From contig OZ245018.1 in assembly GCA_965223825.1 (NCBI GenBank), forward strand, positions 1,171,328 through 1,235,327: a stretch of 64,000 nucleotides of DNA. The letters run 5' to 3'. The DNA is from Gammaproteobacteria bacterium (GTDB taxonomy: Bacteria > Pseudomonadota > Gammaproteobacteria > CAJXQU01). Position numbers and translations under genes: made by a program. The notes under the pieces were generated by a model, which worked only from the letters and a program-made list of their open reading frames with translations, ran no database searches and was not told where the DNA came from. Positions 35,250 to 64,000 of this stretch are shown one piece after another (the first letter of the stretch is position 1; each line of letters opens with the position of its first letter).

Positions 35250-35302
35250 ATCAGCTCCTTCTTGTTCTTTTTATTCTATTTTATGTTTTTGCTAACCACG
35301 AA

Positions 35303-35986: not shown

Positions 35987-36054
35987 GTGAAAATTATTAT
36001 TTTTTTTAAATCGCAATTAGATAACACGGCTTAGAGCTTGTATAGGAAGTGTTT

Positions 36055-36090
36055 TTTACATACTTTCACCCTGTCTTTACATAGCTTAAC
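36055..36090 (-). promoter_or_regulatory. Two tandem CpxR-like boxes (GTAAA-N5-GTAAA type)
   Basis: Minus strand GTTAAgctatGTAAA-gacagg-GTGAAagtatGTAAA, 21 bp apart, upstream of the response regulator. Confidence 0.55.
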
Positions 36091-36145
36091 GTGTCTGTTC
36101 ATGACTTCAGCTTAGCAAAGAATTAAAGAATAATACGTAAAAAGC

Positions 36146-36170
36146 AAAAACGGCCCAAAGGACCGTTTTT
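36146..36170 (-). terminator. Rho-independent terminator after the SRPBCC gene
   Basis: Minus strand AAAAACGGTCC-TTT-GGGCCGTTTTT followed by GCTTTTT. Confidence 0.75.
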
Positions 36171-36196
36171 ACCTATGCGAAGATAGTATGCTCTTA

Positions 36197-37906: not shown

Positions 37907-39280
37907 ATGTCACAGATAAATGAATCAGTTTCAGTTTGTATTGTGGGTGCCGGCGTTGCAGGGCTTGCGATCGCAAAACAGTTACAAGAACGAAGTGTTA
38001 ACTTTGTTTGTTTTGATGCGCGTGACAAACTTGGTGGGATATGGGCATTTACTGACGATCCAAAATTCACTGCTGCTTGGGGAAGACTCAATCAGAATAC
38101 GCCGAGAGGGCGATACGAATTTTCAGATTATCCGATGCCTGATAGCTATCCTGATTATCCTACCAGAGAGCAAGTTCAAAACTATTTAGAAGATTACGCA
38201 AGTCATTTCAATTTCATCGATAAGATCAAACTTAATACGTGGGTCGTGTCTGCCGAACGTTTGGAAGAGGGTGGATGGATAGTTGAAACTTCAGATCAAA
38301 ATAAGAAATTTTACGATTATTTCATTGTTGCGAACGGACATCACAACAAGCCCAATTACCCCGCCTACGTTGCGGACAATAAATTCTCCGGTGAAACACT
38401 GCATTCCAGTCAATATCGTTTTCGTGAACCCTTTGCAGGTAAGAAGGTGATGGTTGTCGGAATCGGCAATAGTGGATCGCAGATCGCTGTTGATGTAAGT
38501 CACGCTGCGGAACAAACCTTCATCTCAACACGTCGAGGTGTATACATTTTACCGCATTATATTTGCGGTTTACGGTTCGATAAACTTTTCGGTTTTGTTG
38601 AATGGTGGTGGGTACATAAAGTCTTGCCGTGGCCTGTCCTGCATTGGATTTCATCTGTGTATTACGGCTTATTTCTAGCAAAAAATGAAAGTTTTGGAAT
38701 GCCTAAACCTGATCACAAAATGTTTGAGGCGTTGCCAACGTTAAGTGAGAATTTTTTTAATCGTGTCGGTGATGGTCGACTTGTGGTCAAGCCAGAGGTC
38801 GATCGGTTAGATGGTAATACGGCCTATTACAAAGATGGTACATCTGAAGAGCTTGACGCGATCATATATAGCACTGGTTTTGATCTGGATTTTCCTTTCT
38901 TTAAAGACGAGACATTGAAACTTCAAGAAAACCGCGTTCCTTTGTTTAAACGCATATTTTCAACTCAGTATCCCGATGTGTGTTTTATCGGTTTATTTCA
39001 AGCGGTGACATTTGGCTTTTTACACATGATGGAGCATCAGTCAAAACTGGTTGCGGAATACATCATCGGTAATTACACCTTGCCATCACAATCAGACATG
39101 TTGCAAGACATCGCTAAAGAGAAAAAACATATCGAAAAAACCTTCACGAAAGTACTGAGAAATAATTATCAGATGATGGGCTCTGTCTATGTACATGATG
39201 TTAAATGCGAAATGAAAAAAGGTATCGCAAGAACCGGGAAAAAACAGGAAGACGTTATGGCCGTTAGATCAGCCGTTTGA
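37907..39280 (+). CDS. Flavin-containing monooxygenase (class B, FMO/BVMO type)
   Basis: GAGVAG, GGIW, FSGETLHSSQY (FxGxxxHxxxY), GIGNSG, STG. Confidence 0.92.
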   Translation: MSQINESVSVCIVGAGVAGLAIAKQLQERSVNFVCFDARDKLGGIWAFTDDPKFTAAWGRLNQNTPRGRYEFSDYPMPDSYPDYPTREQVQNYLEDYASHFNFIDKIKLNTWVVSAERLEEGGWIVETSDQNKKFYDYFIVANGHHNKPNYPAYVADNKFSGETLHSSQYRFREPFAGKKVMVVGIGNSGSQIAVDVSHAAEQTFISTRRGVYILPHYICGLRFDKLFGFVEWWWVHKVLPWPVLHWISSVYYGLFLAKNESFGMPKPDHKMFEALPTLSENFFNRVGDGRLVVKPEVDRLDGNTAYYKDGTSEELDAIIYSTGFDLDFPFFKDETLKLQENRVPLFKRIFSTQYPDVCFIGLFQAVTFGFLHMMEHQSKLVAEYIIGNYTLPSQSDMLQDIAKEKKHIEKTFTKVLRNNYQMMGSVYVHDVKCEMKKGIARTGKKQEDVMAVRSAV

Positions 39281-39340
39281 TTTATTAGATCAGGGATATG
39301 TTCACTCAATTATTAAAATTATGGACAAAAGGCTAAATAA

Positions 39341-40066
39341 ATGATCATTGAAGATGCGGTGGTATTAATAACAGGCGCAGGTCGAGGGCTAGGCTTGGCA
39401 CTGGTGAGAGCATTGTTCAATAAATCGCCTCGATATATTTATGCAGCTATCCGTAATCAGGAGCAGCTTGATGATCTCATTGCTGATTACGGAGATATTG
39501 TAATACCAGTCAGTATGGATGTTACGGATACAGAGTCTATTAATCGTGTAGCAGATCTTGCGCAAGATGTGACCCTGTTAATCAATAATGCTGGCGTCAT
39601 TTCTGAAGGCGATTTGTTTCAAGCAGAACTTGACAATATTCAACGTGAAATGGATGTAAATTATTTCGGAACATTAAATGTCATTCGACGTTTTACTCCG
39701 ATTATAGAAGCCAATGGTGGTGGGGCGGTAATCAATATTTTATCCATCTCTGCACTTGCAAGCGTGCCTGGCATTGGTGGGTATAGCGCATCTAAAGCGG
39801 CTTCTCAATCTCTAACACAATCTATTCGTTATTTATTACAGGATAAATCAATCACTGTGCATGGTGTTTTTCCGGGCCCTATTGATACTGATATGACACG
39901 GGATATGGATGTACGAAAAGCCACATCCGATGATGTCGCCCAGGCGATTGTTGAGCAAGTTGAGCAAGGTGAAGAAGACATCTTTCCTGATGAAATGTCT
40001 CGTCAAGGTGGGCTTTGTTGGCGAAGTGATCCAAAAGTTCTCGAACGTCAATTAGCGATGAGTTGA
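39341..40066 (+). CDS. Short-chain dehydrogenase/reductase
   Basis: TGAGRGLG, NNAG, YSASK. Confidence 0.93.
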   Translation: MIIEDAVVLITGAGRGLGLALVRALFNKSPRYIYAAIRNQEQLDDLIADYGDIVIPVSMDVTDTESINRVADLAQDVTLLINNAGVISEGDLFQAELDNIQREMDVNYFGTLNVIRRFTPIIEANGGGAVINILSISALASVPGIGGYSASKAASQSLTQSIRYLLQDKSITVHGVFPGPIDTDMTRDMDVRKATSDDVAQAIVEQVEQGEEDIFPDEMSRQGGLCWRSDPKVLERQLAMS

Positions 40067-40087
40067 TGGCAATGTTGAATCGAATTA

Positions 40088-43000
40088 ATGGTGGCGCTAA
40101 TGAATGATCAAAATATGCATATGGATAACCTATCACTAGATCAACTCAATCAGTTTACCCTGGCGTTACTAAGAGACGTGACAGGGCTCGGCGAAGATGA
40201 TCTGCGAACTACAACGACGTTTGAAGAGATTAACCTGGAATCTTTAGCGATCACCGCGTTTGTTTCTCGTCTAGCACCGTATTTTAAAGGTTTATCAAAA
40301 ACATTTATTTTTGATTGTCGAAATATCGTGGATGTTAGTCATTACTTGATCAAGAAGCATCCTGAGTCTGTTAAGAATATTAATAATCAAAAAAGCAAAC
40401 AGAGAGAAGCGGAGGAGATAATATCCGAGCAGGGGGGGGTAACTTCTCAAAATGAAGTCGAACACGATTCTGAATGGCCAGAAATCATTCCTCTACATCA
40501 GCTTACGCAACAACAATCAAAAGATGCGATAGCCATCATTGGGATGGATGGACGCTTTCCCGGCGCGGGTTCACTAACCCAATTCTGGGAAAATCTCAGC
40601 AATGCAGAACACGCCATAACAGAAATTCCGTCTGATCGTTGGTCACTTGACGGTTTTTATGAAGAGGGTACGGAATCACGTCGTTCAGGTTTGAGTTATG
40701 CAAAATGGGGTGGTTTTATAACCGATGTTGATAAATTCGACCCACAGTTTTTTGGAATATCTGCGCGAGAAGCAGCGCAAATGGATCCACAAGAGCGATT
40801 GTTTTTAGAAACGGCATGGCACGCAATGGAGAATGCATCGCTGCTGGGTGAGCGAGCTGATAACTTATTACAAGATCGAAGTTATAACATAGGTGTTTTT
40901 GTCGGGCTCACGACCAATACATATAATTTATTGACGTCTGATAACTGGCGAAATGGTGGAAAAGATATTCCAGCTTCTGTGCCTTGGTCCGCAGCCAATC
41001 GTGTTTCATTTGCGCTCAATTTAAACGGCCCGAGTGTCGCAGTCGATACTGCATGCTCTTCCTCTTTGGTTGCATTTCACCAAGCTTGTGAAAGTATTCG
41101 TAACGGTGAGTGTAAAGCAGCGATTACTGGCGGGGTCAATCTTTACTTGCACCCTGCAAAATATATACAACTTTGTCAGTTACAAATGTTATCGCCAACA
41201 GGGCGTTGTCATACTTATGGTAAAAATGCTGATGGGTTTGTACCTGGTGAAGGTGTTGCTGCTGTAGTTCTTAAACCCCTTAGTCAGGCACAAAAAGATG
41301 GCGATCGTGTTTTAGGGGTAGTGCGTGGAACATCGGTAAACCATAGTGGAAGAACAAATGGCTACACCGTCCCGAATGCACAGTCACAAGCACAGTTAAT
41401 AGAATCAGCGCTTAAACCATTTGATCTAGAACCGTCCAGCATTAATTTTATTGAAGCTCATGGGACGGGAACAAAGTTGGGAGATCCCATCGAGTTTACG
41501 GGATTGACCGAAACACTTGCAGGAGAAACTTCAACAGCTCCCTGTGCGATCGCATCAGTAAAATCGAATATCGGACATCTTGAATCAGCGGCTGGGATCG
41601 CCGGTATTCTCAAAGTGTTGTTACAACTACAGAAAAATAAAATTGCACCGTCTCTTGGCTCGAGTGAATTAAATCCTGCACTAGAATTGACGGGCACTCG
41701 TTTCTTCGTTCCTCAAGCAATGACAGATTGGTTGCCTGATCCTGATACGGGTTTGCGACGAGCCGGGGTTAGTTCTTTTGGTGCTGGTGGTACCAATGGA
41801 CATGTCATTATTGAACAGCCTCCTTCAATCGAAAGTCCATCGGAAAATATCAGTGGACATTCTAGTGTTATAACAGAACATGTATTTCCGGTTTCAGCGC
41901 GATCACAAAAACAACTTGATCAACTAATTACAAAACTTGTTGATGATATAACTTCTGATCAGAAATTTAATAACGATAGTAATGCATTCACATCATTGGC
42001 ATACGTACTACAATGTGGTCGGCAACATCACGCTTATCGTTTTATCTGTGTTGCTGATTCAGTTAACAGTTTAGTCAATAAATGTAAAACGTATCTACAA
42101 AAAGATCCGTCTCAGTCTCTAATATCAGATGACATCTATTTTAGTCATGTACGTTCTGATGAAGAAACCCCCATGCAGTCACTGTCTGTTGATGCAAAAA
42201 CACAAGCGCAACAATGGAGTGAAGGTGTACAAGTTAAGTGGTCGACATTGTGGACTGAAAAACCGGTCTTGATCGAGCTTCCTTTATATCCGTTTGCACG
42301 TGAGCGTCATTGGATAAACAGCGGGCCAGAAACAATCACCATGCCGGCTAACGTGACACAGTCGATTTCATCCAATCAAAAGATCACCTTTACATTCACC
42401 GGTGATGAATACTTCTTGCGCGATCACCAAATTGATGGAACGCCTATATTCCCTGCAGCGGCTTATCTAGATTATTTTTATAAAGCCCTTGAGCCGTATA
42501 GCCTCGGAGAAGAGCTGACATTTAAAAATATTACTTGGGCAAATCCATTTCGGCCAGGTGAAATGGATGCATCAGCAATGACAAGTCAGGTCAAAAAAGA
42601 GAAAAGTGATTATGCGCTGGAATTCACTTCAAGCAACCAAGATAAAATCTATTGTAGAGCACGTTGCGCAACTCAAGGTCTTAAAAAAGAAAATGCCGTT
42701 AAAAAATTAACTGAAATAAAAAGTCGATGTACAAACGAAGTATTAGTCTCTGCAAGTTACAACGCTTTTGATTCACTTGAGATGTGCTATGGACCAAGTT
42801 TCCGAGGAATGCAGTCAGCTTGGGTAAGTCCTGATAAAACAGAGGCGCTAGTAGACGTTGTTAACAAAGTGAATTTCAATTCATTAGATTCAGTGCCCGT
42901 CATCGAAGCTGGCATGCTCGATAGTATTTTCCAAAGTAGCTTTGTTTTATCGCGTGCAGTAAGTCCAGATGTGACACACCAGTTTATTCCATACAGTGTT

Positions 43001-46000
43001 AAATCCATTTACGTTAAGCAGCGATTGCCAGAGAAAGTATCAGTTTATGTTCGTGAGAGACGCCAACAAAATGGTAACTGGCGTGTATTTGATTTTAGTG
43101 TTTTCGATCAAAGCGGTGAGCTACTCATTAAAATCGAAGAATTCAGTTTCCGCACTATCGCTCGTTCTATCCAGAACGTAAATAAGGAGAATGATAATGT
43201 CCATTCTCTTTATCAATATGAACCTTACTGGGAACGTTACCAAGTTCATACTGTTCGCCATTCTATTACGAATGGAAAGATTGTTTTATTCGATAACAAT
43301 GATCGATCATTTCAACAACTCCAAGCTTTAAACGAAATTAATAAAGATGCTGTCTGGCAAGTTATTTCTGCAGATCACTTCTTAATTCGAGATGACAATA
43401 CGGTTGAGATGGACTGTAACGAAAACGCGCATTTAGATTTGTTGTGGCGTATGTTTATTACCGAAGGTGGCTTACCAGAAACCTTGCTGTTCAATATCCA
43501 TAATGACGATGAAGATGATCTTAACGAGACAGAATGGGAGAGTTCGGTCGGGTTAAGACAAGTAAAAAACATTATCGAAATTATTCGAAGTTATTGTCAG
43601 AAAACACAATCGCCACGTGTTCATGCTCATATCAATTTTCAACGTAGTGCCAGCGATAATACCTTTCCCCTGGGTATTTCAATCGCTGGTTATCTACGTG
43701 CTTTACATGAAGAAATGCCGAATGTTACGGCGAATATTATTCACACAAAAACAAGATCATCAGAACATCAAAACTTTCCAAATTGGTTAGAAGCAGCATT
43801 TCAAATAGATCGATCAGCTGTTCAAGAATTTAGCTGGAATAACGGAAATCTTGAATTAAAAAAACTCAAGTTAAGGGAGGACACGCCACACGCCTCTTTG
43901 CACGATCATTCGCAACCCATCGCAAACGACGTGATAGTGATTACTGGCGGATCAGGTGCTGTAGCCAGTGCAATAGCCGAGAGCTTTCAACGAACACCAG
44001 GAATACGTTTAGCTCTGATCGGACGTTCATCAGAGAACAATACTATTCAATCGTATATTCAACGTTTACGAAATAAGGGTATCTCAGCGAAATATTGGCA
44101 AGCAGATTGTTCCGATCGCAATAATCTTGCCGAAACACTCGACCGAATCAGAACGCATTTTGGTGCGATCTCTGGCGTTTTCCACTTTGCCGGTATTTTG
44201 AAAGATGCATTTTTTCTACGTCAAGACAGTTCTGACTGGAACGATGTACTTAGAGCAAAAGTTCTCGGTACACACTGGCTAGATGAGCTTACAAAAAATG
44301 ATCCTGTTAAATGGTTTGTTGTGAGTTCAGGTTTAGCTGGCGTTCGTGGTAACGCGGGACAGAGCCTTTATGGACTTGCCAATGCTTGGTTAAACGCTTT
44401 TGTAGAAAAACGACAATTAAACCTTGTCACGTCACATCGTCGTGGGAAAACACTCTCTATTGCTTGGTCTCTTTGGGATACGGAAACTGGAATGAAGCCG
44501 CCACAAAGCATGATCGATCGTTATGCTAAGAAAGGCTTGACACCAATTGATTTAGAGGAAGGGGTAGAGCTTTTCCATACAGTACTTCAATCAAACGACC
44601 TTGTCGTTATACCGGTTAAAGGACAGCGTAGTGCTATTAATGCATTTATTGGCATTAACGGAGCAACGAATACGACGTTAAAAGTACTGGGGAATGAAGT
44701 ATCCGAAAATGAAGCGAAAGATAATTTACTATTAGAAAATACAGAAGTAGACAATAAGATATCAAACATAACTGAATTGCATTTATTGCAAACACAGAAC
44801 GATCAAACTCCAAACTGTCAATGTGCAGTAAATGAGGCTGATCAACATTCTTTATTAATAGATTATCTTGCTGAAAAGCTCTCACAGGTGACGGGGACAC
44901 CAGTAGATAAAATCGATGCTGATGTTTCTTTAGAAGCATTTGGCTTGGATTCAATTCTTGTTATGGAGTTGAACGATCAGCTTGAGCAAGATTTCAGTCA
45001 AATGTCGAAAACGGTTCTTTTTGAAGCAAGAAACTTACGACTTCTAGCTGATTTGTTGATGGATGAACATCCAGAAGATGTTGAAAATTTAACACATCAA
45101 AGAATATCAATTACAGAATCTCAAGCATTTAAAACAGAAGGTTCAACTAATAACGCGATTGAAATTCAAACCAGTTCTGTTGATATTGAAACTCATCACT
45201 CATCTGAAGAAAAGTCTGAGCAGGTTTTTAACGAGTCAGATACTAACCCCAAAAACTTAACGCAAGATACCTTCGATCTTGATCGTCAAAAGAAGGCAAC
45301 AAACCGTGGTGATCAGATTGCGATTATTGGAATCTCAGGTCGTTATCCAGGCGCATCAAACCTTGATGAGTTATGGGAACACCTTTCGTCAGGACATGAT
45401 CTTGTAAGTGAAATTCCCGGTCGTTGGACGCTTGATAACAATCAGAATCAGTTCGGTTCTGAACCCATGTATGCAAAATGGGGAGGTTTTGTTGCTGATT
45501 ATGACTGTTTTGATCCATTGTTCTTTGGTATTTCACCGCGTGATGCTGAACGGATGGATCCGCAAGAACGGCTCTTTCTACAAACGGCTTGGCATACATT
45601 AGAAGATGCAGGTTATACACCTGAGAGTCTTTCTGGTTCACGTGATGATCAACACCTTCGCCGACGTGTCGGTGTCATTGTCGGTGTGATGTATGGCGAG
45701 TATCAGTTGTACAGTGCATCGGGTCAACCGGGCGATACACTGACGAATTCCTCGTATGCATCGATCGCAAATCGTGTTTCCTATTGCTTGGATTTTGACG
45801 GGCCTTCTTTTGCAATCGACAGCATGTGTTCCTCATCGTTGACAAGTATTAGTCTGGCTTGTGATCAACTGCGTAGCGGTCGTAGTGATGCTGTAATCGC
45901 TGGTGGGGTCAATCTTTCCATTCATCCGCACAAATACCGCATGTTATGTGAGCTAAATTTCGCGTCTACTGACGGACGCTGTCGAAGTTTTGGTGACGGT

Positions 46001-47338: not shown

Positions 47339-47376
47339 AGATCACCATGTAATTTAGTAAGTTATTGAGGATACAG

Positions 47377-48723: not shown

Positions 48724-48724
48724 T

Positions 48725-52480: not shown

Positions 52481-52521
52481 TTTTAAAAAAAAGTGTGATG
52501 AATTGACGTTAGAGGTTTCCA

Positions 52522-55500: not shown

Positions 55501-55566
55501 GTACAGATTCTGAAAAAACAGAATTTTTCATTTCGATCCGATAATAAACAAGTAGGTGTCGTATGA
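52522..55566 (+). CDS. Stand-alone trans-AT KS with degenerate ACP-like insert and degenerate DH-like tail
   Basis: DPQQR, DTACSGS, HGTGT, GHLE, SSFGFGGVNAH, LPAYPF. Confidence 0.85.
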   Translation: MSTKSEQNYPVAVVGMHGRFPDAIDVKEFWTNLCEGNNTIKLVPEERWDWKEIFGSSDDESEKTSINCAAFMPMVDRFDHRFFGILPREAEAMDPQQRLFMQTAYAALEDAGYAANSLAGSNTGVFVGIGNADYPGMMRREGAAFDIYRATGLALTSIANRVSFSLDIHGPSESIDTACSGSLVAIHRAIQSMQYGECDRAIVGGVNLLVGPDLFIAFDKAGMLSKTARCRTFDKDANGYVRGEGVAALVLCPLEEAQANGDYIYAVIKGSAENHGGRAHSFTAPNATAQAEVVKTAWKRAGRNYHQACLIETHGTGTPLGDPIEINGLKKVSENFKKSQPEINPIANTIALGALKSHVGHLEATAGVAGVIKAILAMKYRTIPRNLNYQTLNPHISLDQTPYYIPSSNITLDHQYLLTSGVSSFGFGGVNAHIVLESYENSLSDISDQEANQGEINYLIKLSAKDENGLNNRIQQMIEFLELSCNDSKILLSFESLMNMMLDALDVDHSALTISASTLLIDLALSPHDWNKALHKLSYQLGREVDFKEIVDCITLGDVVDVVRKESLRQRGLNWSDKPAINARVATPEIEIQSVSIGHIAVTLLEGRENFKHRLACVVKSKIELLKLLRTCQEKQNQNQSNNQILKHIIKFDDPVIEKPEKILQQADIEELTNWARWWVGTKNAELSWSMLYPTQSRPSKTPLPAYPFQLDKIWYKRGALGLKKEKDHERTINNNSKNIAPRENKQLKNYSEDMLVAWRECQNYSQRSIPSSVLSIAYLLDYARYKSSNKIVKLSEVIVGTPFNINEDELVFSDVTNEQGQFFQCLSSADKQRVLIQGKRLIGNRTSGSTVTFAQSSEQLRMSGDEYEQELDSLKLLIGPISQWVDKCESSENSLYLTLKLDSWKEKRGTFWVPLVLCIFSGIAYLSIKKDKTFKLIWTVQSIVMSIKAGQSVRNLQIVLDPKDNTCSILMLDEEKSVVLTMQNITLRDSSVVQILKKQNFSFRSDNKQVGVV

Positions 55567-57620: not shown

Positions 57621-57623
57621 ACC

Positions 57624-57878
57624 ATGGATCATAATGTGAATGAAATTAAGGCAATTATTGCCACCTTTATTTGTGAAGAACTAAGTGTGGATATGGACGA
57701 TATTGATCCAGAAATGAACCTAGGAGCGTATGGACTTGGTTCTGTAGCGGCGACGACACTCACGGGTATTCTTGAAGATACCTATGATTTAAGTTTGTCA
57801 CCGTTATTAGTGTTTGATTATCCAACGATAGATGCTTTAGCTACAGCGATTGATGATCAGATGAAGGCTGAGAGTTAG
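57624..57878 (+). CDS. Acyl carrier protein
   Basis: YGLGSV (Ser retained), FDYPTIDALA. Confidence 0.85.
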   Translation: MDHNVNEIKAIIATFICEELSVDMDDIDPEMNLGAYGLGSVAATTLTGILEDTYDLSLSPLLVFDYPTIDALATAIDDQMKAES

Positions 57879-57898
57879 ATCGCCAAGGAGAATTTATC

Positions 57899-59668
57899 AT
57901 GTTTCAAAAGACAATAATGACAGCCTCCGAAGTATTAACTGCCGTTGGTACACTTCCTATACAGGACTCATTAACATTAAGAGCTTCATTACATCCAAAT
58001 AAAAAACTTTTTACTTTTCTTGATGATGAAGGATTGGAAAGTGATCAGTTTACCTATCTTGATTTGTGGCAACGTGCAAGATCCGTCGCCGATTACCTAA
58101 TTAGTCGTTCGGAACCTGGTGATCGTGTCCTGCTTTTTTACCCGCAAGGGTTAGATTTTATCGCTGCATTTTTCGGTTGTTTATTATCAAACCGTATTGC
58201 TGTTCCAATAAACTTACCTAACCGTCGACGTGTGGATAAATGCGTTAGCATTATTCTTGATACGGGTGCACATCTTGCGATGGCACCACAAAAGACTTTT
58301 GAAAAAATCAGTGATGGCTTTTCCGGTACAGAAGCTTCTAAGCTTGAGTGGATAATGTGTGAAGACATTCCTCGTGGAGGTTTAACCCCTGTCTTTGGTG
58401 CGCACCGAACAGATACAAATCTCAATGATATCGCATTCCTACAATATACCTCTGGATCTACATCAGCACCCAAAGGTGTGATGGTTACGCATCGCAATAT
58501 CGCAATAAATCTTCAAATGATGCGTGATAGTTGGAGCCTAGATAACCAGACAAATATGGTTTTTTGGCAACCTCATCATCATGATATGGGGTTAATAATG
58601 GGTCAGTTATTACCGGTGTTATTAGGTAATCACACAGTCACTATGTCACCAAATACAGCTGTTAGACAGCCAGCAATCTGGTTGAAGGCAGTATCAGATT
58701 ATCAAGCAAAACTAACTGGTGGTCCTAATTTTATTTACGATCTTGCTGTAACACGATTTTCTGAAAAGCGTTTGCAAGGTGTGGACCTCTCCAGTTGGGA
58801 AATAGCGCCTAATGGTGCTGACGTGGTTCGTTCAACCACACTTGATAGATTTTATTCTACCTTCAAAAATTATGGATTCCGTATGGAAACATTTATGCCG
58901 TGTTACGGGTTAGCGGAAGGGACGTTATTCGTAACAGGTGGGCCGACTCGCCAGATGCCAAAAGATATGCAGGTCGATAAAAAAGTATTAGAACAAGAGA
59001 GGCGTGTAGCAAGGACCAATGATCAATTTGTAGGACGAGTGTTGGTAGGTTGTGGTGAACCAAACTGGGAAACAGAGGTTGCTATTGTTGATCCGGAAGG
59101 TGGTCAGGAGTGTCAGGCTGGCGAGGTCGGTGAAATTTGGGTCAATGGACGTGCTGTTGCTGCAGGGTATTGGAAAAATGAAAAAGCAACACAGAACACT
59201 TTTCACGGAATGATCAGTAGTGAGCCAGATAAACGCTATTTACGCACAGGTGATATTGGATTTATTGGCGATGATAGTCAGCTGTATATTTGTGGGCGCT
59301 TAAAAGATCTTATTATTTGTGAGGGTCGTAATTTACACCCGGAAGATATTGAGTACACAATTCTCGAATCAACAGATCGGTTAAAACCACAAAGTTGTGC
59401 TGTTTTTAGTTATGACAAAGATGATCAACGTCAGGCAATGGTTGCAATTATTGAAACAGATCGTGATTTAAAAAGATGTCTTGCAGAACAAGCTAAAGAA
59501 TTAAGAATAACGATTGGCCGATCAGTCACCGATGCACATGGTGTCGGCTTAAGCCAAATAGTGTTTATTCCACCTGCAACATTGAAAAAAACAACCAGTG
59601 GTAAAGTCCAACGTAGTCTAATGAAAAACCTCTATCTCAATGGCGAATTGGATATTTTACAAACATGA
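57899..59668 (+). CDS. Fatty acyl-AMP ligase (FAAL)
   Basis: AFLQYTSGSTSAPKGVMV, HDMGLI, PCYGLAE, LRTGD, GRNLHPEDIE, KTTSGKVQR. Confidence 0.92.
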   Translation: MFQKTIMTASEVLTAVGTLPIQDSLTLRASLHPNKKLFTFLDDEGLESDQFTYLDLWQRARSVADYLISRSEPGDRVLLFYPQGLDFIAAFFGCLLSNRIAVPINLPNRRRVDKCVSIILDTGAHLAMAPQKTFEKISDGFSGTEASKLEWIMCEDIPRGGLTPVFGAHRTDTNLNDIAFLQYTSGSTSAPKGVMVTHRNIAINLQMMRDSWSLDNQTNMVFWQPHHHDMGLIMGQLLPVLLGNHTVTMSPNTAVRQPAIWLKAVSDYQAKLTGGPNFIYDLAVTRFSEKRLQGVDLSSWEIAPNGADVVRSTTLDRFYSTFKNYGFRMETFMPCYGLAEGTLFVTGGPTRQMPKDMQVDKKVLEQERRVARTNDQFVGRVLVGCGEPNWETEVAIVDPEGGQECQAGEVGEIWVNGRAVAAGYWKNEKATQNTFHGMISSEPDKRYLRTGDIGFIGDDSQLYICGRLKDLIICEGRNLHPEDIEYTILESTDRLKPQSCAVFSYDKDDQRQAMVAIIETDRDLKRCLAEQAKELRITIGRSVTDAHGVGLSQIVFIPPATLKKTTSGKVQRSLMKNLYLNGELDILQT

Positions 59669-60435
59669 AACCGGCTGAGTTTGATCGAACTAAAGTAACG
59701 CCATTAGGTGATGATTTTGTAACTTTAATTTCTAACCCTGATGCTGCTGTGAGATTAGTCTGTTTTCATTTTGCCGGTGGAAGTGCACAAAGCTTTTTAC
59801 CTTGGAGAGATGAGTTTCAGGGGGTCTGTGAGTTAATCGCGGCCGAATTACCTGGGCGAACACGTCGATATAATGAGTCTTTTTACCCATCGATTGCTGT
59901 GGCTGTTGAGAAGTTAGCACAGTCATACTTAAAACTACCACGTAAGCGCACCATTTTTTATGGGCATAGTTTAGGAGCCTTGTTAGCTTATGAAACCACG
60001 CGTTTATTGTCAGATCATGATTGCGCTCCTGAGCATTTAATCCTTTCGTCACGATCTGGACCCGTTAATTTCCCTGTTTCGATTGGCTTACCGGAGTTGT
60101 CAGATGATTCGTTATTAACATATTTAAAAAATCTGGAAGGGACGACAGAGGCCGTTCTTGAAAATAAAACGTTAATGAAGGTGATGCTTCCAATAATACG
60201 ATCAGATTTAGAAATTATTTATGGTTACCAGCATGATGACTCTACGAAAGTCACGATACCTGTGGAAGTAATCGGTGCAATTGATGATCAACACTGTCCA
60301 TTTGAGTCATTAATGGATTGGAAAAATATTACAGATAATTCATTTCGTATACATATGATTCCGGGAGGACATTTTTCTCCGATCAATACGCCCGACATTG
60401 TAAAACAGAAAATTAATCAATTGAGTGTTAGTTAG
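59665..60435 (+). CDS. Type II thioesterase
   Basis: FHFAGGSA, ELPGR, GHSLG, GGHF. Confidence 0.92.
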   Translation: MKPAEFDRTKVTPLGDDFVTLISNPDAAVRLVCFHFAGGSAQSFLPWRDEFQGVCELIAAELPGRTRRYNESFYPSIAVAVEKLAQSYLKLPRKRTIFYGHSLGALLAYETTRLLSDHDCAPEHLILSSRSGPVNFPVSIGLPELSDDSLLTYLKNLEGTTEAVLENKTLMKVMLPIIRSDLEIIYGYQHDDSTKVTIPVEVIGAIDDQHCPFESLMDWKNITDNSFRIHMIPGGHFSPINTPDIVKQKINQLSVS

Positions 60436-60438
60436 TTT

Positions 60439-61146
60439 ATGAATTCAAAACAGTCTCTTGATGAGGTGCAAGTGTTTGTCGTGAAAACCCAAGACTATAC
60501 AAACTACGAACACCTTCATTGCTTGCTTAGTGTTGAAGAAAAAAAACGTGCTGACCGTTTTTTATTCAAGAAGGATAAGCATGATTTTGTCATAGCGCAT
60601 GCTTTAAAAAGAGAGAAGATAGCTGATCAGTTAAATATTAGCGATCCGACATCGATCTATTTTGAGAATTCACCCAGTGGTAAACCTTATCTAAAGGGTT
60701 CGGCCTTGCATTTTAACATTAGTCATTCACATGGTTGGGTTGCCTTGGTCATTTCTCAAAAATCCGAATGCGGAATTGATATTGAGTCATATCAAAATAG
60801 AAGACTTAATCAATTGCCATTATTGATAGATAAAACAATGTCAGAGTTAGAGAAAAGTGCAATTGACAACTCCTCTAACCGTTTATACGCGTTTATTGAT
60901 CGTTGGGTTTTAAAAGAGGCGTATTTAAAAAAGAGTGGGGTTGGTTTGGCAGTAAATTTAAACGCAATTTGTACGGAATTCGATTCAATATCGAATTCGG
61001 ATTACAAAGCGGTTCTTGATAGTAAATTCTATATTAAAAAAAACCAAGATTATTCATTATCTATGTGTATGAGCGATATCGAAAATGTCAGGTTTCACTC
61101 TCATTTAGAAGGAAATCAATTCGAAATACAAAGTCATGCACAATGA
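60439..61146 (+). CDS. Sfp-type 4'-phosphopantetheinyl transferase
   Basis: GKP, FNISHS, GIDIE, WVLKEAYLK. Confidence 0.93.
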   Translation: MNSKQSLDEVQVFVVKTQDYTNYEHLHCLLSVEEKKRADRFLFKKDKHDFVIAHALKREKIADQLNISDPTSIYFENSPSGKPYLKGSALHFNISHSHGWVALVISQKSECGIDIESYQNRRLNQLPLLIDKTMSELEKSAIDNSSNRLYAFIDRWVLKEAYLKKSGVGLAVNLNAICTEFDSISNSDYKAVLDSKFYIKKNQDYSLSMCMSDIENVRFHSHLEGNQFEIQSHAQ

Positions 61147-61178
61147 AAGTTAACTTATCCCGAACTGAGAGGTGACAT

Positions 61179-61988
61179 ATGGGAAATCCATCAGCACAAA
61201 CTGCGAGTGATATCACTGCATTTTTTGATATTAGTGATAAAGAAAGAAAAACTATCGCATGGGAGTATATTATTTTTGAGGCACTAACATTCATTCATTT
61301 TTCACTTGCTTTTATGGGGTATGTTCCTTACTGGACATTTTGTATTGCCGTATTTTGGTATATTCCAAGGTGGATGATCGCACTACATGAGCAACAACAT
61401 TTCTGCACGCCAAAAAATATCAATATCATTACGCGTCACAATCTTCTTATTTTGACACCGTTTCAACTCGGTTATTGTGAAATGCGCGATATTCATATGC
61501 GTCATCACGCTCATGGTGCTACTGAAAAAGATCCTGAGTATTACCATATAAAAGGTCATTGGTTTGCAGGGTTTATTAATGTGTTTTTTTCACCAGAACA
61601 GTCTGTTTATTTTTGGTTAAAAGAAAAAAAAGTGGATGCTGAACTTGTTCGGGGTATGCTGATTCGTTTTAGTTTATTTGTTGCGATTGTTGCTATCTGT
61701 GGTTGGCAAAGTTTGTGGTATTTCATCCCTGTTAGGCTGGCATATGGATCGTGTTTATTTTTCTTCTCTTACTGTTTACACCGTAAAGATGGGGAATATG
61801 GAACGTTTAGTATTCAATATCCAGGTTTTTTACGTAAATTAATGCATATTTTCTATGGGAATACGTTACTGCATAGTGTGAGTGAGCATGATATTCACCA
61901 TGATTATCCACGAGTACCAGGCAATCGTTTAGGAGAGGCGCGTCCGTACTACGTACCTCGACGATCAGCCATGAAGCAAGCATCCTAA
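61179..61988 (+). CDS. Membrane fatty-acid desaturase/hydroxylase family protein 1
   Basis: His boxes HEQQH, HMRHH, HDIHH; hydrophobic segments. Confidence 0.82.
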   Translation: MGNPSAQTASDITAFFDISDKERKTIAWEYIIFEALTFIHFSLAFMGYVPYWTFCIAVFWYIPRWMIALHEQQHFCTPKNINIITRHNLLILTPFQLGYCEMRDIHMRHHAHGATEKDPEYYHIKGHWFAGFINVFFSPEQSVYFWLKEKKVDAELVRGMLIRFSLFVAIVAICGWQSLWYFIPVRLAYGSCLFFFSYCLHRKDGEYGTFSIQYPGFLRKLMHIFYGNTLLHSVSEHDIHHDYPRVPGNRLGEARPYYVPRRSAMKQAS

Positions 61989-62056
61989 TATACTCATTGC
62001 CATTCTCAATTTAGGCATTTAGTCAATAATTACCCGAGACGATTTGGAGAGATAAA

Positions 62057-62902
62057 ATGCATGCTCAACCCTTAAGCGATGATACGATTTTGGCTGCGCT
62101 ATCTAAAAACCCAGAGATGGATATTTCAAGGCTTGAATGGACAAATCTTATTTATATTGTTTTTGTTTATGCTCATTTCGCACTTGGTGTATTCGGTTTT
62201 GTACCGCTGTGGACTTTTTGTATTGGTGCGCCAATGTATGTCGCACGTTGGATGATCGGTTTGCATGAGATCTTGCATTTATTAAAACCGCAAGATATTA
62301 ATCCTTTAATCAGATTGCATTTACTAATAGTGACACCATTTTCACTAGGCTATCGTGAAGTACGAGATATTCACATGCGACACCATGCTTATACGGTCAC
62401 GGACAAAGATCCTGATCTCTACCATATCAAAGGTAATTTCTTTACCTCATTTTTAACAGTACTCATACAACCAGAGATTTCTGCCTATCATTGGGTTCGT
62501 GAAAAAGGATTTGATAGAGAGTTGGCACTTGGGATGACGTTACGGTTTGTATTGTTTACGGTGTTCACTATCAGCCTTGGCTGGACTGCGCTATGGTATT
62601 TTATTCCTGTGAGATTAGCGTATGGAAGTTGTATGTTTTCCATTTCTTTTCCCTTACATCGTCAATCTGGAGAGTACGGGACTTATACACCTAAGTACGG
62701 TCTTTTTTTAGAGACGATAATGGATGTTTTCTTCGGGAGAGCTGCACTTAATACCCTGAGTTATCATGATATTCATCACGACTACCCTCGAATTTCTGCA
62801 TTTAAATTACCTGTCGCAAGAAAATACTATAAACCTAAACCTTCGAGTTTAGCTGACAGATCGTCTATTTCAGAAATGTCTGATATCCGCAAAACGGCTT
62901 AG
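62057..62902 (+). CDS. Membrane fatty-acid desaturase/hydroxylase family protein 2 (paralog)
   Basis: His boxes HEILH, HMRHH, HDIHH; shares DIHMRHHA and WYFIPVRLAYGSC with the upstream gene. Confidence 0.82.
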   Translation: MHAQPLSDDTILAALSKNPEMDISRLEWTNLIYIVFVYAHFALGVFGFVPLWTFCIGAPMYVARWMIGLHEILHLLKPQDINPLIRLHLLIVTPFSLGYREVRDIHMRHHAYTVTDKDPDLYHIKGNFFTSFLTVLIQPEISAYHWVREKGFDRELALGMTLRFVLFTVFTISLGWTALWYFIPVRLAYGSCMFSISFPLHRQSGEYGTYTPKYGLFLETIMDVFFGRAALNTLSYHDIHHDYPRISAFKLPVARKYYKPKPSSLADRSSISEMSDIRKTA

Positions 62903-62912
62903 GAGAGTATTT

Positions 62913-64000
62913 ATGCTCGATTTTACTTCATCGACTGACAATAGCATTTCATCACTCTTATTGTGGATGCGTGATTATGCAAATAATCGATTAAATTCCG
63001 CATTAATGGATGCTCGTCGAAGTATTCCGCCATACATAGTTTTAGATTTCGGTAATAAGGGGTTGCTTGGTTTGCAAGCGCCGGTTAACTGCGGTGGATT
63101 AAATTTAAGTAATGAAGAATGTATGGCTGTTTCGACACAGATAGGCGCGATTGATATGAACCTTGCGATCTTTGTGGGACTGCACAATCACCTCGGGATC
63201 CGACCAATCATGCATTTCAGTAATTCATCAGTTCGAGATGAGTTATTACCTGAAATAGCTTCTGGTCGACAACTTACTGCTTTCGGTTTAACAGAACCTG
63301 GAGCTGGATCGAACGCAGGTGCTATTGAAGGTCAAGCCCAAGCGTTGACGGGTGGAAAGGTAAAACTCAATGGCCATAAAATGTGGATCGGGAATGCGGC
63401 TTGGGCCGGTGTGATCAATGTTTTTTTACGTTATGTCGATGAGCAAGGCAAACCTAATGGAATTAGCGGCTACGTTGTAAGACAAGGTACCCCTGGTTTA
63501 CAGATGGGGCCTGAATTAATGACGATGGGTATGCGTGGAATGGTTCAAAACCGTTTTACCATGAATGATCTTGTGATCAGTGAAGAGCATCAATTAGGTG
63601 CACTTGGACGAGGGTTGGATGTCGCTCAAGATGCGATGATGTACACACGTTTGGCATTAGGTGCAATATTTCTCGGCGGGATGAAACGTTGTATGCAGCT
63701 AATGTTGCGTTATGCAGAACGCCGTATGAAGATTTCTACCGGCCGATTACTCGATCATCCGGTTTCAATGATGCATCTGAGTACATTGACTGCACAATCT
63801 GATGCCCTCGAAGCACTTGTCTTATTTATTAGTCGTGGCTTAGATAAATCGATTTCGATACCTGAGGAATTTCTTATTACGGCAAAAGTATTGGGGTCAG
63901 AGTTTCTCTGGGAAGCGGCAGATAAAGCGAGCCAAATGCTGGGTGGGAGAGGGTATTTAGAGAGTAACGAAATAACAAAAATCCTACGGGATGCACGAGT
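62913..64000 (+). CDS. Acyl-CoA/acyl-ACP dehydrogenase (runs off the window end; absent from the ORF track)
   Basis: AGGAG RBS, ATG 62913; my translation MLDFTSS...RRSIPPYIVLDFGNKGLLG...AFGLTEPGAGSN...LNGHKMWIGN...MGMRG...LGGRGYLE. Confidence 0.88.
   Translation, partial: MLDFTSSTDNSISSLLLWMRDYANNRLNSALMDARRSIPPYIVLDFGNKGLLGLQAPVNCGGLNLSNEECMAVSTQIGAIDMNLAIFVGLHNHLGIRPIMHFSNSSVRDELLPEIASGRQLTAFGLTEPGAGSNAGAIEGQAQALTGGKVKLNGHKMWIGNAAWAGVINVFLRYVDEQGKPNGISGYVVRQGTPGLQMGPELMTMGMRGMVQNRFTMNDLVISEEHQLGALGRGLDVAQDAMMYTRLALGAIFLGGMKRCMQLMLRYAERRMKISTGRLLDHPVSMMHLSTLTAQSDALEALVLFISRGLDKSISIPEEFLITAKVLGSEFLWEAADKASQMLGGRGYLESNEITKILRDAR

What the first reader, a model, noticed from the sequence alone, without database searches (positions are those of the whole stretch)
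37907..64000. Compact non-colinear trans-AT PKS with fatty-acid starter and heavy oxidative tailoring
Seen: only three KS domains on two proteins, but two flavin monooxygenases, an SDR, two desaturases, an acyl dehydrogenase, FAAL, TEII and a dedicated PPTase, all on one strand. Inference for the order: FAAL loads the free ACP; desaturases and the dehydrogenase act; the stand-alone KS (52522) extends onto the N-terminal ACP of the large PKS; then KS-DH-KR-ACP; then KS|oxygenase|ACP-hydrolase release. From memory, the toblerol cluster of Methylorubrum extorquens (epoxide/cyclopropanol polyketides) is a similarly small oxygenase-split trans-AT system. This may be a new member of that family with a different, more unsaturated tail. 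That comparison is unverified.
Basis: partly seen in the sequence, partly recalled or inferred. Interest (0 to 1): 0.82.

Follow-up and report, generated by a model that had tools for sequence, protein, structure and literature searches.

The report
Toblerol-type polyketide cluster, desaturase-bearing variant
This is a complete 14-gene operon for a small lipid-like polyketide, related gene for gene to the toblerol cluster of methanol-using bacteria, but it ends in two rare iron enzymes and a dehydrogenase that the toblerol cluster lacks, so its product is probably a new relative of the toblerols.

Summary
All listed genes are present on the + strand as one tightly packed operon (37907 to 64499, about 500 bases past the window end), and no further PKS gene follows. 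20 of 28 related loci show the same run PKS, oxygenase, ACP-hydrolase-PLP-fold protein, KS, AT, ACP, FAAL, TE. One of these loci (Methylobacterium sp. R2-1) matches the published TobC/TobE docking residues almost letter for letter. The host is itself a methylotroph.

- The trans-AT gene carries a PfaD-like ER part.
- The "stand-alone KS" carries a histidine-less DH fold.
- The ACP-hydrolase protein ends in two tandem class-III aminotransferase folds. The one that can be aligned to a solved enzyme lacks the Schiff-base lysine in every member examined, so no amine should be expected.

What is new:
- The window belongs to a separate, well-supported clade in which the second oxygenase is a free gene at the operon head.
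- The tail of the operon is PPTase, DES1, DES2, ACAD, instead of DUF3047 and Rieske-P450.
- DES1/DES2 form a very small uncharacterised family.

Product and step order remain inferred.

The parts
37907..39280 (+). FMO1: class-B flavin monooxygenase (457 aa). It is the counterpart of the oxygenase domain that is fused to the C-terminus of the TobE-like protein in most relatives.
   Evidence: Pfam FMO-like 3.2e-77. It is 46-53% identical to the C-terminal part of the fused ORFs, or to the next gene, in related loci, and 70% identical to the head gene of L024. GxGxxG motifs and FxGxxxHxxxY are present.
39341..40066 (+). Stand-alone SDR (241 aa).
   Evidence: Pfam adh_short 1.7e-40. NCBIfam NF006118 scores 283.5 bits against a cut-off of 279. 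A homologue lies upstream of the PKS in L013, L015, L024 and L031, and at the tail in Methyloligella L036.
40088..47338 (+). TobC-like megasynthase (2416 aa): ACP, KS, DH, KR, ACP, KS, C-terminal docking helices.
   Evidence: Pfam domains. Catalytic motifs intact. It is 35-51% identical over the full length to the PKS of related loci. The C-terminal motif P..IL.KV..G.M...ARE.LLA is shared with the TobC docking domain.
47365..48723 (+). FMO2: TobD-type oxygenase (452 aa), lying between the megasynthase and the ACP-hydrolase gene.
   Evidence: Pfam FMO-like 5.4e-51. It is 55-75% identical to the gene in the same position in all related loci that cover it. The literature assigns Baeyer-Villiger oxygen insertion to this group.
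48725..52480 (+). TobE-like protein (1251 aa): N-terminal docking helix, ACP, alpha/beta hydrolase, a cryptic class-III-aminotransferase-like domain, then a second class-III aminotransferase fold without the Schiff-base lysine.
   Evidence: Pfam PP-binding, Abhydrolase_1, Aminotran_3. AF2 model of window 50294-51301: pLDDT 80.9, and every hit shown in the Foldseek listing is a class-III aminotransferase-fold enzyme. In the alignment to putrescine aminotransferase the window has Thr where the Lys stands. That position is T, S or M in 10 of 10 proteins and T or S in 24 of 24 loci.
52522..55566 (+). KS with flanking subdomain and a C-terminal DH-like double hotdog that has no catalytic His (1014 aa).
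   Evidence: Pfam KS domains. Cys179, His314 and His361 are present. AF2 model of residues 640-1014: pLDDT 69.2, Foldseek top hit MlnB DH 5hst at 6.2e-12. The 11-sequence alignment A2 has no invariant His.
55563..57620 (+). Trans-acting malonyl acyltransferase fused to a PfaD-like (ER-like) part (685 aa).
   Evidence: Pfam Acyl_transf_1. NCBIfam fabD 278 bits against a cut-off of 260.9. PfaD family match at residues 307-424, E 7.9e-12, far below that family's cut-off. GHSIG and AFHT motifs present.
57624..57878 (+). Free-standing ACP (84 aa).
   Evidence: Pfam PP-binding 4e-14. A homologue lies between AT and FAAL in the related loci.
57899..59668 (+). Fatty acyl-AMP ligase (589 aa).
   Evidence: Pfam AMP-binding plus the DIP2-like C-domain. 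The best NCBIfam names are fatty-acid--AMP ligases, all below their cut-offs. It is 50-71% identical to counterparts in related loci.
59665..60435 (+). Type II thioesterase (256 aa).
   Evidence: Pfam Thioesterase 2e-31. GHSLG motif and C-terminal GGH.
60439..61146 (+). Sfp/HetI-type phosphopantetheinyl transferase (235 aa).
   Evidence: Pfam ACPS and AASDHPPT_N. A weak HetI match, below its cut-off.
61179..61988 (+). DES1: small membrane di-iron enzyme of the FA_desaturase superfamily (269 aa). Reaction unknown.
   Evidence: Pfam FA_desaturase 9.8e-14. Three His boxes and two long hydrophobic stretches. Only 30 relatives were found by the word-indexed search. Absent from 5 of 5 genomes that carry tob-type clusters. 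Same position in metagenome contig L042.
62057..62902 (+). DES2: paralogue of DES1 (281 aa, 47% identical to DES1 in alignment A4).
   Evidence: Pfam FA_desaturase 3.7e-13. The only named match is CrtW ketolase at 29.1 bits against a cut-off of 350. DES2 is P0084 in alignment A4. DES1-DES2-ACAD is also found in L042 and L043.
62913..64000 (+). ACAD-family flavoprotein. The first 362 of 528 codons lie in the window; the gene ends at window coordinate 64499.
   Evidence: Pfam Acyl-CoA_dh_N/M/1. The full length is read from L001:2414-4000. Catalytic Glu in FEGPTE. 25 of the 120 listed relatives are fused to an ACP and 9 carry FAAL parts.
33810..36769 (-). Divergent upstream genes: sensor kinase, OmpR-type response regulator, SRPBCC/Polyketide_cyc2 protein. 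Whether they belong to the cluster is not shown.
   Evidence: Pfam. The kinase has no counterpart at E <= 1e-40 in 6 of 6 congeners. No homologue of the SRPBCC protein was seen in the related loci.

Best explanation
The stretch 37907-64499 is one operon that encodes a toblerol-family trans-AT polyketide assembly line in a RuMP-type methylotroph.

Shown:
- Homology and synteny with the toblerol-type clusters.
- Intact catalytic motifs.
- A conserved TobC/TobE-type docking pair.
- A distinct clade with its own gene arrangement and its own tail genes.

Inferred course:
1. The FAAL adenylates a fatty acid and loads the free ACP.
2. The ACAD-family enzyme, whose relatives are often fused to ACP and FAAL parts, dehydrogenates the ACP-bound chain. 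The two membrane di-iron enzymes DES1 and DES2 oxidise or desaturate the chain further.
3. The KS/pseudo-DH protein condenses the chain with malonate. The AT supplies the malonate to the N-terminal ACP of the megasynthase, and the product is left as a beta-keto thioester.
4. KS-DH-KR-ACP adds a unit and leaves an enoyl group.
5. The last KS, docked to the ACP-hydrolase protein, adds a third unit.
6. The TobD-type oxygenase FMO2 inserts oxygen next to the beta-keto group (Baeyer-Villiger reaction). The hydrolase domain cuts the resulting ester, so the chain leaves with a terminal alcohol.
7. FMO1 carries out a second oxygenation.
8. The SDR and the tandem PLP-fold module finish the head group, which in toblerols is a cyclopropanol. 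The lysine-less module is not expected to transaminate.
9. The TE is an editing or release enzyme, and the PPTase primes the four carrier domains.

The product is expected to be a toblerol-like oxygenated lipid alcohol whose tail differs from that of toblerols A-H.
For: Gene content and domains.

Synteny:
- The genome-contig scan gave 30 loci.
- 2 of them (Streptomyces, L032 and L033) matched the ACP only and were dropped.
- Of the other 28, 20 show the whole run PKS, FMO2, ACP-HY-PX, KS-X, AT, ACP, FAAL, TE.
- The remaining 8 are cut by contig or locus ends and are collinear as far as they reach.

Link to the characterised cluster:
- The C-terminus of the L015 (Methylobacterium sp. R2-1) PKS carries every TobC residue named in PMC11221535 (T2252 to R2278).
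- The N-terminus of its next-but-one protein carries the named TobE residues, except E for D at position 23.
- The window keeps the motif on both partners.

Oxygen insertion and ester cleavage giving the toblerol terminal alcohol: passages of PMC7586987 and PMC6174933.

Pseudo-DH.

Lysine-less tandem PLP folds.

Separate clade: in a FastTree of 60 ACP-HY-PX proteins the window's protein sits in a 15-row clade (local support 100). That clade holds all 7 rows linked to DES genes and has no fused oxygenase.

Same tail order PPT, DES1, DES2, ACAD on metagenome contig L042, at 44-71% identity.

ACAD relatives fused to ACP (25 of 120 listed) and to FAAL parts (9 of 120).

Host methylotrophy: 6 PQQ alcohol dehydrogenase genes, one hexulose-6-phosphate synthase gene and 2 Fae genes above their cut-offs.

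Kept in the population: a 156-kb DNA contig of another run carries the whole 20 kb that was laid, with 108 differences.
Against: - No product is known, and no enzyme of this cluster has been assayed.
- The order of modules is inferred, apart from the TobC/TobE-type junction.
- The original toblerol paper and all supplements were not available, so I could not compare with its published pathway scheme. I also could not find the "C" (condensation) domain named in the figure legend of PMC11221535. No condensation domain was found by Pfam in any protein of the window's cluster.
- The solved docking complex 8RAJ was not among the PDB matches to the window's N-terminal stretch at E <= 10. The docking link therefore rests on motif conservation read by eye.
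- The PfaD-like part of the AT protein matches only positions 9-126 of 444, far below the cut-off, so ER activity is doubtful.
- DES1/DES2 chemistry is open: only a remote CrtW match.
- Co-occurrence of DES genes with the cluster is direct for one contig (L042). For the others it is inferred from equal contig lengths in two tables.
- Expression evidence is weak. The contigs come from one RNA-Seq library and no silent-stretch control was laid.
- The lysine-less state of the first, cryptic PLP fold rests on the absence of an invariant Lys in A5, not on a residue-level alignment.
Confidence: 0.8

Rival explanations
1. The cluster makes an aminated lipid. The class-III aminotransferase domain would convert a released aldehyde or ketone into an amine, as in PKS-linked transaminases.
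For: - Pfam Aminotran_3 at 5.4e-36 on residues 860-1223.
- PDB relatives include putrescine aminotransferase and PigE.
- Sources name relatives "aminotransferase class III".
Against: - In the alignment to putrescine aminotransferase, the position of the lysine in LAKALGGG is Thr in the window.
- That position is T, S or M in 10 of 10 aligned family proteins and T or S in 24 of 24 loci, including the toblerol orthologue L015.
- The SGT phosphate-binding motif reads SQT or SNV.
- From my recall of the abstract, not from a call, the toblerols carry no nitrogen.
Confidence: 0.07
2. The tail genes FAAL, ACP, TE, DES1, DES2 are an alkyne or polyyne cassette of the JamABC/polyyne kind. The product would be an acetylenic fatty acid, only loosely coupled to the PKS.
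For: - The gene set FAAL, ACP, desaturase-family enzymes and thioesterase is the one I recall for the jamaicamide alkyne starter and for bacterial polyynes (recalled, no call).
- The genes are adjacent.
Against: - FAAL, ACP and TE are part of all 20 complete tob-type loci, which have no DES gene in the stretch fetched. DES1 was not found in 5 of 5 such genomes. The cassette is therefore not defined by the desaturases.
- The DES profile finds only 153 clusters in 1.84 billion proteins, so ordinary fatty-acid desaturases do not match it.
- The only named match is a carotenoid ketolase.
- I could not compare with JamB-type sequences, because none was at hand.
Confidence: 0.08
3. The cluster is a silent or decaying horizontally acquired island without a product.
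For: - Only 1 of 7 genomes of the genus, family and order as held carries the ACP-HY-PX gene.
- The upstream kinase is also unique to this genome.
Against: - All 14 ORFs are open and their catalytic motifs are intact.
- The stretch is held at about 99.5% identity on a 156-kb contig of another run, and 20 rows from 9 studies hold it or a part of it.
- Contigs of an RNA-Seq library cover 29 of 30 bins of the 20 kb laid. This is weak, because no control stretch was laid.
Confidence: 0.05

Closest known systems
Toblerol (tob) trans-AT PKS cluster of Methylorubrum extorquens AM1 (Ueoka et al. 2018, not held; described in PMC11221535, PMC6174933, PMC7586987)
   Same: - Same core genes in the same order: TobC-like ACP-KS-DH-KR-ACP-KS, TobD-like oxygenase, TobE-like ACP-hydrolase-PLP-fold protein, KS-X, AT-ER, ACP, acyl ligase, TE.
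- Conserved TobC/TobE docking motif.
- The host is a methylotroph.
   Different: - Identity is only 30-55% (L015).
- The second oxygenase is a free gene at the head of the operon instead of a C-terminal domain of TobE.
- A PPTase lies inside the operon.
- The tail is DES1-DES2-ACAD. The Methylobacterium orthologue instead has DUF3047 and a Rieske-P450 fusion after the TE, and it has no DES or 528-aa ACAD homologue.
- The window sits in a separate clade in the ACP-HY-PX tree.
Oxygen-insertion modules of the oocydin and pederin pathways (OocK/PedG with KS, pseudo-DH, ACP)
   Same: - FMO-type oxygenases are encoded next to PKS modules that leave a beta-keto group.
- A KS is followed by a DH fold without the catalytic histidine, as described for the modules that precede pedG/oocK.
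   Different: - Here the KS/pseudo-DH has no ACP of its own.
- There are two oxygenase paralogues, about 30% identical to each other.
- Which module each oxygenase serves is not known.
- No sequence comparison with OocK or PedG was possible.
FAAL-ACP-acyl-ACP dehydrogenase proteins of cyanobacteria and others (named "acyl-CoA/acyl-ACP dehydrogenase" by their sources)
   Same: The 528-aa ACAD is 41-49% identical over nearly its full length to these proteins. 25 of the 120 listed relatives carry an ACP and 9 carry FAAL parts. This fits action on a FAAL-loaded acyl-ACP.
   Different: In the window the three functions are separate genes. The position of the double bond or other reaction is unknown.
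CrtW beta-carotene ketolase (NCBIfam NF045690)
   Same: Same superfamily, similar size (about 260-280 aa) and His-box layout. It is the only named family that DES2 touches.
   Different: The score is 29.1 bits against a cut-off of 350. DES1 has no NCBIfam match. The gene context is a PKS, not carotenoid genes. This is not a membership.

Membership tests
Toblerol-type trans-AT PKS cluster | TobC-like megasynthase that ends in a KS with a C-terminal docking domain | tested here: met
   Domains ACP-KS-DH-KR-ACP-KS. The tail SPKVILDKVSRGEMKHEEAREYLLAL is aligned by eye with the L015 tail, which carries all the TobC residues quoted in PMC11221535.
Toblerol-type trans-AT PKS cluster | TobD-like FAD oxygenase encoded directly after the megasynthase | tested here: met
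   FMO2 at 47365-48723. It is 55% identical to the gene in the same position in L015 and 55-75% identical to it across the loci.
Toblerol-type trans-AT PKS cluster | TobE-like protein that starts with a docking helix and an ACP, followed by hydrolase and PLP-fold domains | tested here: met
   Pfam domains. 61 relatives with bit scores above 700, all carrying the same Pfam domains except one truncated protein that lacks Aminotran_3. The N-terminal LSAEEALRKL matches ISAEEALSML of L015.
Toblerol-type trans-AT PKS cluster | Second oxygenase domain (OXY) | tested here: met
   Present as the free gene FMO1 (37907-39280). It is fused to TobE-like proteins in 16 loci, is the next gene in 7, and lies at the operon head in L024 and in the window.
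Toblerol-type trans-AT PKS cluster | Accessory set KS-X, AT-ER, free ACP, acyl ligase, TE in that order | tested here: met
   X is a DH-like fold.
Toblerol-type trans-AT PKS cluster | Condensation (C) domain listed in the legend of Fig. 1 of PMC11221535 | tested here: inconclusive
   Pfam found no condensation domain in any protein of the window's cluster. I could not see the figure, so I do not know which Tob protein carries it.
Toblerol-type trans-AT PKS cluster | Product is a cyclopropanol-bearing polyketide alcohol | not testable with these tools
   Needs chemistry.
Class-III (fold type I) PLP aminotransferases | Schiff-base lysine after the seventh strand | tested here: not met
   The window has Thr opposite the Lys of putrescine aminotransferase. 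The position is T, S or M in 10 of 10 proteins and T or S in 24 of 24 loci. The fold is met.
PKS dehydratase domains | HxxxGxxxxP catalytic histidine | tested here: not met
   This row concerns the C-terminal domain of the 52522-55566 protein. The fold matches DH domains, but no His is invariant in 11 sequences. The DH inside the megasynthase does have the motif.
Alkyne/polyyne FAAL-ACP-desaturase cassettes | Desaturases of the JamB/polyyne clade | not tested
   No reference sequence was available from a tool. The indirect evidence is against it.

The most novel reading that the evidence does not exclude
DES1/DES2 are a new functional class of membrane di-iron enzymes that work on a carrier-bound polyketide starter. 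Together with the ACAD they give a new, more oxidised or unsaturated cyclopropanol lipid. Methylotrophs would use this lipid against the PQQ/lanthanide methanol dehydrogenases of competitors, since cyclopropanols are stated to inhibit MDH (introduction of bioRxiv 10.64898/2026.05.05.723055). In addition, the lysine-less tandem aminotransferase-fold module, shared by the whole toblerol family, would be the still unknown catalyst that builds the cyclopropanol head group without classical PLP chemistry.
Probability: 0.15. Interest if true: 0.8.

Novelty: new variant of a known kind. Interest (0 to 1): 0.5.

Why it matters
- Toblerols are the only characterised products of this odd, fragmented kind of trans-AT PKS. 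How their cyclopropanol is made is, as far as I could read, still open.
- This window shows that the family has a second, well-separated branch in other methylotrophs, with a different tailoring set. That branch is a ready source of new analogues and offers a natural comparison for working out which genes make which part of the molecule.
- The "PLP enzyme" part of every family member examined, the toblerol orthologue included, is a tandem pair of aminotransferase folds, and the alignable one lacks the catalytic lysine. This narrows what that module can do, and it can be tested directly with purified protein.
- The DES family is so small (two 50%-identity clusters score far above the rest among 1.84 billion proteins) that its function can probably be learned only from this kind of cluster.

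Tried and rejected
Ideas and searches that led nowhere:
- Host identity. I first read the host as Legionella-like, from Sel1 repeats, a eukaryote-type kinase and about 40% GC, and read the legionellol paper. That cluster is of a different kind. The host has methylotrophy genes, so I dropped the idea. A search for DotH/IcmK found nothing, but its control was silent too, so it says nothing.
- Rfam at gathering thresholds: no hit in the window.
- PDB search with the N-terminus of the ACP-hydrolase protein: ACP structures only, and 8RAJ was not among the 41 hits.
- Promoter and terminator scans of 36700-37950 and behind the ACAD: no more sites than in shuffles, no terminator.
- ESM Atlas for DES1: only "fatty acid desaturase domain" clusters, nothing more specific.
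- NCBIfam on 10 distant DES relatives: 2 faint CrtW matches, 8 with nothing.
- Context of distant DES relatives (27-36% identity; L045, L046): a hybrid kinase-receiver gene and a MetA-type porin gene, no PKS. This gave no functional lead.
- SRPBCC gene upstream: no homologue in related loci, so it is not counted as part of the cluster.
- DUF3280 as a conserved neighbour: present next to the cluster in the window's genome and about 2 kb from the tob orthologue in G001, but absent from G002-G004. No consistent link.
- Island borders: the genus relatives are too divergent to define them. GC of the cluster (0.35-0.43) is not clearly different from its surroundings.
- Literature. Searches for "toblerol" with "desaturase" (2 papers, 1 listed, unrelated), for "toblerol" with names of methylotroph genera (none of the 10 papers listed, of 1,105 found, holds "toblerol"), and for "toblerol" alone (15 papers, 14 listed) found no description of this variant. 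These searches cover only the held library. The original paper and the review PMC8518990 are not held, and supplements are closed.
- Complex prediction was not used. The one junction I claim has a solved homologue, so a pass would add little.
- RNA contigs: one RNA-Seq run covers most of the stretch, but contigs cannot show level, strand or ends, and no silent stretch was laid.

Full report
WHAT IS THERE

From 37907 to 64499 (the last gene runs about 500 bases past the window end) fourteen genes lie on the + strand, with gaps of -4 to 68 bases. Pfam and NCBIfam give the following:

1. A flavin monooxygenase (FMO1).
2. An SDR.
3. A 2416-aa PKS reading ACP-KS-DH-KR-ACP-KS.
4. A second flavin monooxygenase (FMO2).
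5. A 1251-aa protein with an ACP, an alpha/beta hydrolase and a class-III aminotransferase domain.
6. A 1014-aa KS protein.
7. A 685-aa FabD-type acyltransferase. It scores 278 bits against a cut-off of 260.9 and carries a partial PfaD-like region.
8. An 84-aa ACP.
9. A fatty acyl-AMP ligase (FAAL).
10. A type II thioesterase (TE).
11. An Sfp/HetI-type phosphopantetheinyl transferase (PPTase).
12. and 13. Two FA_desaturase-family proteins (DES1, DES2).
14. A 528-aa acyl-CoA-dehydrogenase-family protein (ACAD).

The catalytic motifs I looked for are intact. Behind the ACAD come convergent Sel1/TPR and DUF3280 genes and then a two-component pair, so no further PKS genes follow. It omitted the AT gene and two cryptic domains described below.

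THE HOST

The window lies in a 3.33-Mb single-contig genome. I first took it for a Legionella relative. That was wrong. The genome has six PQQ-dependent alcohol/methanol dehydrogenase genes above the TIGR03075 cut-off, a hexulose-6-phosphate synthase gene and two formaldehyde-activating enzyme genes. It is therefore a RuMP-type methylotroph. Only 1 of the 7 genomes held for its genus, family and order carries the ACP-hydrolase gene.

THE LINK TO TOBLEROL

- A protein search with the ACP-hydrolase-aminotransferase protein found 61 strong relatives, all with the same Pfam domains except one truncated protein that lacks Aminotran_3. Many carry an added FMO domain. Those that bear a name come mostly from methylotrophs (Methylophaga, Methyloligella, Hyphomicrobium, Methylosinus) and Pseudomonas.
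- A scan of one genome per species gave 30 loci. Two Streptomyces loci matched only the ACP and were set aside.
- Of the other 28, 20 show the full run PKS, FMO2, ACP-HY-PX, KS-X, AT, ACP, FAAL, TE in the window's order. The remaining 8 are cut short by contig or locus ends and are collinear as far as they go.
- The paper on the toblerol docking domains (PMC11221535; passages read) names the residues of the TobC C-terminus and the TobE N-terminus. The PKS of locus L015 (Methylobacterium sp. R2-1) ends with exactly those residues at those positions, counted back from R2278. The protein after its oxygenase starts with the named TobE residues, except E for D at position 23. L015 is thus the toblerol cluster or a very close orthologue.
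- The window is collinear with L015 at 30-55% identity and keeps the docking motif on both partners.
- The figure legend of that paper lists the same set of functions: acyl ligase, oxygenase, KS, AT, ER, KR, ACP, PLP enzyme, hydrolase, TE and an unknown domain X. It also lists a condensation domain, which I did not find in the window.

DOMAINS THAT PFAM DOES NOT NAME

1. The last 375 residues of the KS protein. A model built from 11 orthologues (pLDDT 69.2) matches trans-AT PKS dehydratase domains, with MlnB DH at E 6.2e-12 as the top hit. No histidine is invariant in the alignment, and the HxxxGxxxxP motif is absent. KS, pseudo-DH, ACP modules are what the literature describes ahead of the oxygenases PedG and OocK.
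2. The 336 residues between the hydrolase and the Pfam aminotransferase hit. They fold (pLDDT 80.9, pTM 0.82) like class-III aminotransferases: every hit shown in the Foldseek listing is an enzyme of that fold. The protein therefore ends in two tandem aminotransferase folds.
3. The second of these folds. It aligns to E. coli putrescine aminotransferase with Thr where the Schiff-base lysine stands. The position is T, S or M in 10 of 10 aligned family proteins and T or S in 24 of 24 loci, L015 included. The first fold has no invariant lysine near the canonical place either. A transamination step is therefore unlikely, in this cluster and in the toblerol cluster.

WHAT SETS THE WINDOW APART

Position of the second oxygenase:
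- In 16 loci it is fused to the C-terminus of the TobE-like protein.
- In 7 loci it is the next gene.
- In the window and in L024 it is the first gene of the operon, before the SDR.

The tail of the cluster:
- The Methylobacterium orthologue continues after the TE with a DUF3047 protein and a Rieske-P450 fusion, followed by a transposase.
- The window continues with PPTase, DES1, DES2, ACAD.
- DES1 was not found in 5 of 5 genomes with tob-type clusters.
- The 528-aa ACAD has a full-length orthologue only in Methyloligella among those five.
- A 28.4-kb metagenome contig (L042) has the window's order from the ACP-hydrolase gene to the ACAD at 44-71% identity. A second contig (L043) has DES1-DES2-ACAD.

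The clade:
- In a tree of 60 ACP-HY-PX proteins the window's protein falls in a 15-row clade (local support 100). That clade contains all 7 rows I could link to DES genes and has no fused oxygenase. The fused, toblerol-like forms are in the sister clade of 45 rows.
- For five of the seven links the evidence is only that the two proteins are reported on contigs of equal length. One more is the window's own protein (P0001), which is linked directly.

The DES family:
- The word-indexed search found 30 proteins.
- A profile search of 1.84 billion cluster representatives found 153 at E <= 0.001 and 29 at E <= 1e-30. Only two scored above 300 bits.
- The nearest named family is the carotenoid ketolase CrtW, far below its cut-off.

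The ACAD family:
- It is wider, with 176 proteins at E <= 1e-40.
- It is often fused to an ACP (25 of the 120 listed) or to FAAL parts (9 of 120).
- Some sources call it acyl-ACP dehydrogenase.
- This supports action on the FAAL-loaded acyl-ACP.

HOW IT MOST LIKELY WORKS

Shown: the parts, their intact motifs, the conserved TobC/TobE-type junction and the family relationship.

Taken from the literature: oxygenases of this group insert oxygen into beta-ketoacyl thioesters, and the terminal alcohol of toblerol arises from such an insertion followed by ester cleavage.

Inferred:
1. The FAAL loads a fatty acid on the free ACP.
2. The ACAD and the two di-iron enzymes modify the chain.
3. The KS/pseudo-DH extends the chain onto the N-terminal ACP of the megasynthase.
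4. KS-DH-KR-ACP adds an enoyl unit.
5. The last KS extends the chain onto the ACP of the hydrolase protein.
6. FMO2 performs the Baeyer-Villiger step and the hydrolase releases an alcohol.
7. FMO1, the SDR and the lysine-less tandem module shape the head group.

I cannot say which of the two non-reducing modules each oxygenase serves. I also cannot say what DES1 and DES2 do chemically.

STANDING IN NATURE

- The 10-kb core is held, in whole or in part, by 20 rows from 9 studies of public runs.
- One DNA contig of 156 kb carries the whole 20 kb laid, with 108 differences.
- Contigs of one RNA-Seq library cover 29 of 30 bins. This is a weak hint of expression, because no silent stretch was laid as a control.

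NOVELTY

The kind is known. antiSMASH already labels Pseudomonas relatives "Toblerol A-H, 45%" (table passage of PMC13745667). The branch with the free head oxygenase and the DES1-DES2-ACAD tail was not described in any paper that my searches reached. The original toblerol paper and all supplements were out of reach, so I cannot exclude that they mention it, or that they mention the missing lysine. I rate this a new variant of a known kind, of moderate interest.

Noticed in passing
window 27662-32841: Flagellar genes fliF, fliG, fliH, fliI and fliJ lie directly upstream of the region.
   Followed up: no
window 33810-36769 (- strand): A sensor kinase, an OmpR-type regulator and an SRPBCC/Polyketide_cyc2 gene are transcribed divergently from the cluster. 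The kinase has no counterpart at E <= 1e-40 in 6 of 6 congeners. They may have arrived with the cluster or may regulate it.
   Followed up: partly
L003:1442-2502 (- strand), 1.1 to 2.2 kb past the window end: The genome's single DUF3280 gene and an overlapping 152-aa gene of no family lie just behind the cluster. A DUF3280 gene also lies about 2 kb upstream of the toblerol orthologue in G001, but G002-G004 have none. The 152-aa protein has a 41% identical homologue upstream of the PKS in Methyloligella (L005:255-770).
   Followed up: partly
whole genome G000: The genome has six PQQ alcohol/methanol dehydrogenase genes above the cut-off and two more strong matches, one hexulose-6-phosphate synthase gene and two Fae genes. 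That is an unusually large set of PQQ dehydrogenases for a 3.3-Mb genome.
   Followed up: partly
L053:5239-8338 (- strand), Methylobacterium sp. R2-1: After the TE, the toblerol orthologue carries a DUF3047 protein and a Rieske-cytochrome P450 fusion, followed by a transposase. This may be the source of the oxidative tailoring in toblerols.
   Followed up: partly
window 46039-46387 and 54427: Contigs of two DNA runs replace about 347 bases inside the last KS of the megasynthase with 344 unlike bases. All four runs laid lack 6 bases at 54427, in the linker of the KS/pseudo-DH protein. This is strain variation, possibly recombination within the KS.
   Followed up: no
L045:8395-10524, L046:988-3158: Distant relatives of DES1/DES2 (27-36% identity) lie directly after a hybrid receiver-histidine kinase gene and near a MetA-type outer-membrane channel gene, not in PKS clusters.
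   Followed up: partly
window 8000-14000 and 14743-18354 (- strand): A low-GC stretch (0.32-0.36, against 0.41-0.51 around it) and a 1203-aa ORF on the - strand were not examined.
   Followed up: no
L003:4909-7900: Two Sel1-repeat proteins and a eukaryote-type Ser/Thr protein kinase lie downstream of the cluster. These first misled me towards a Legionella-like host.
   Followed up: no
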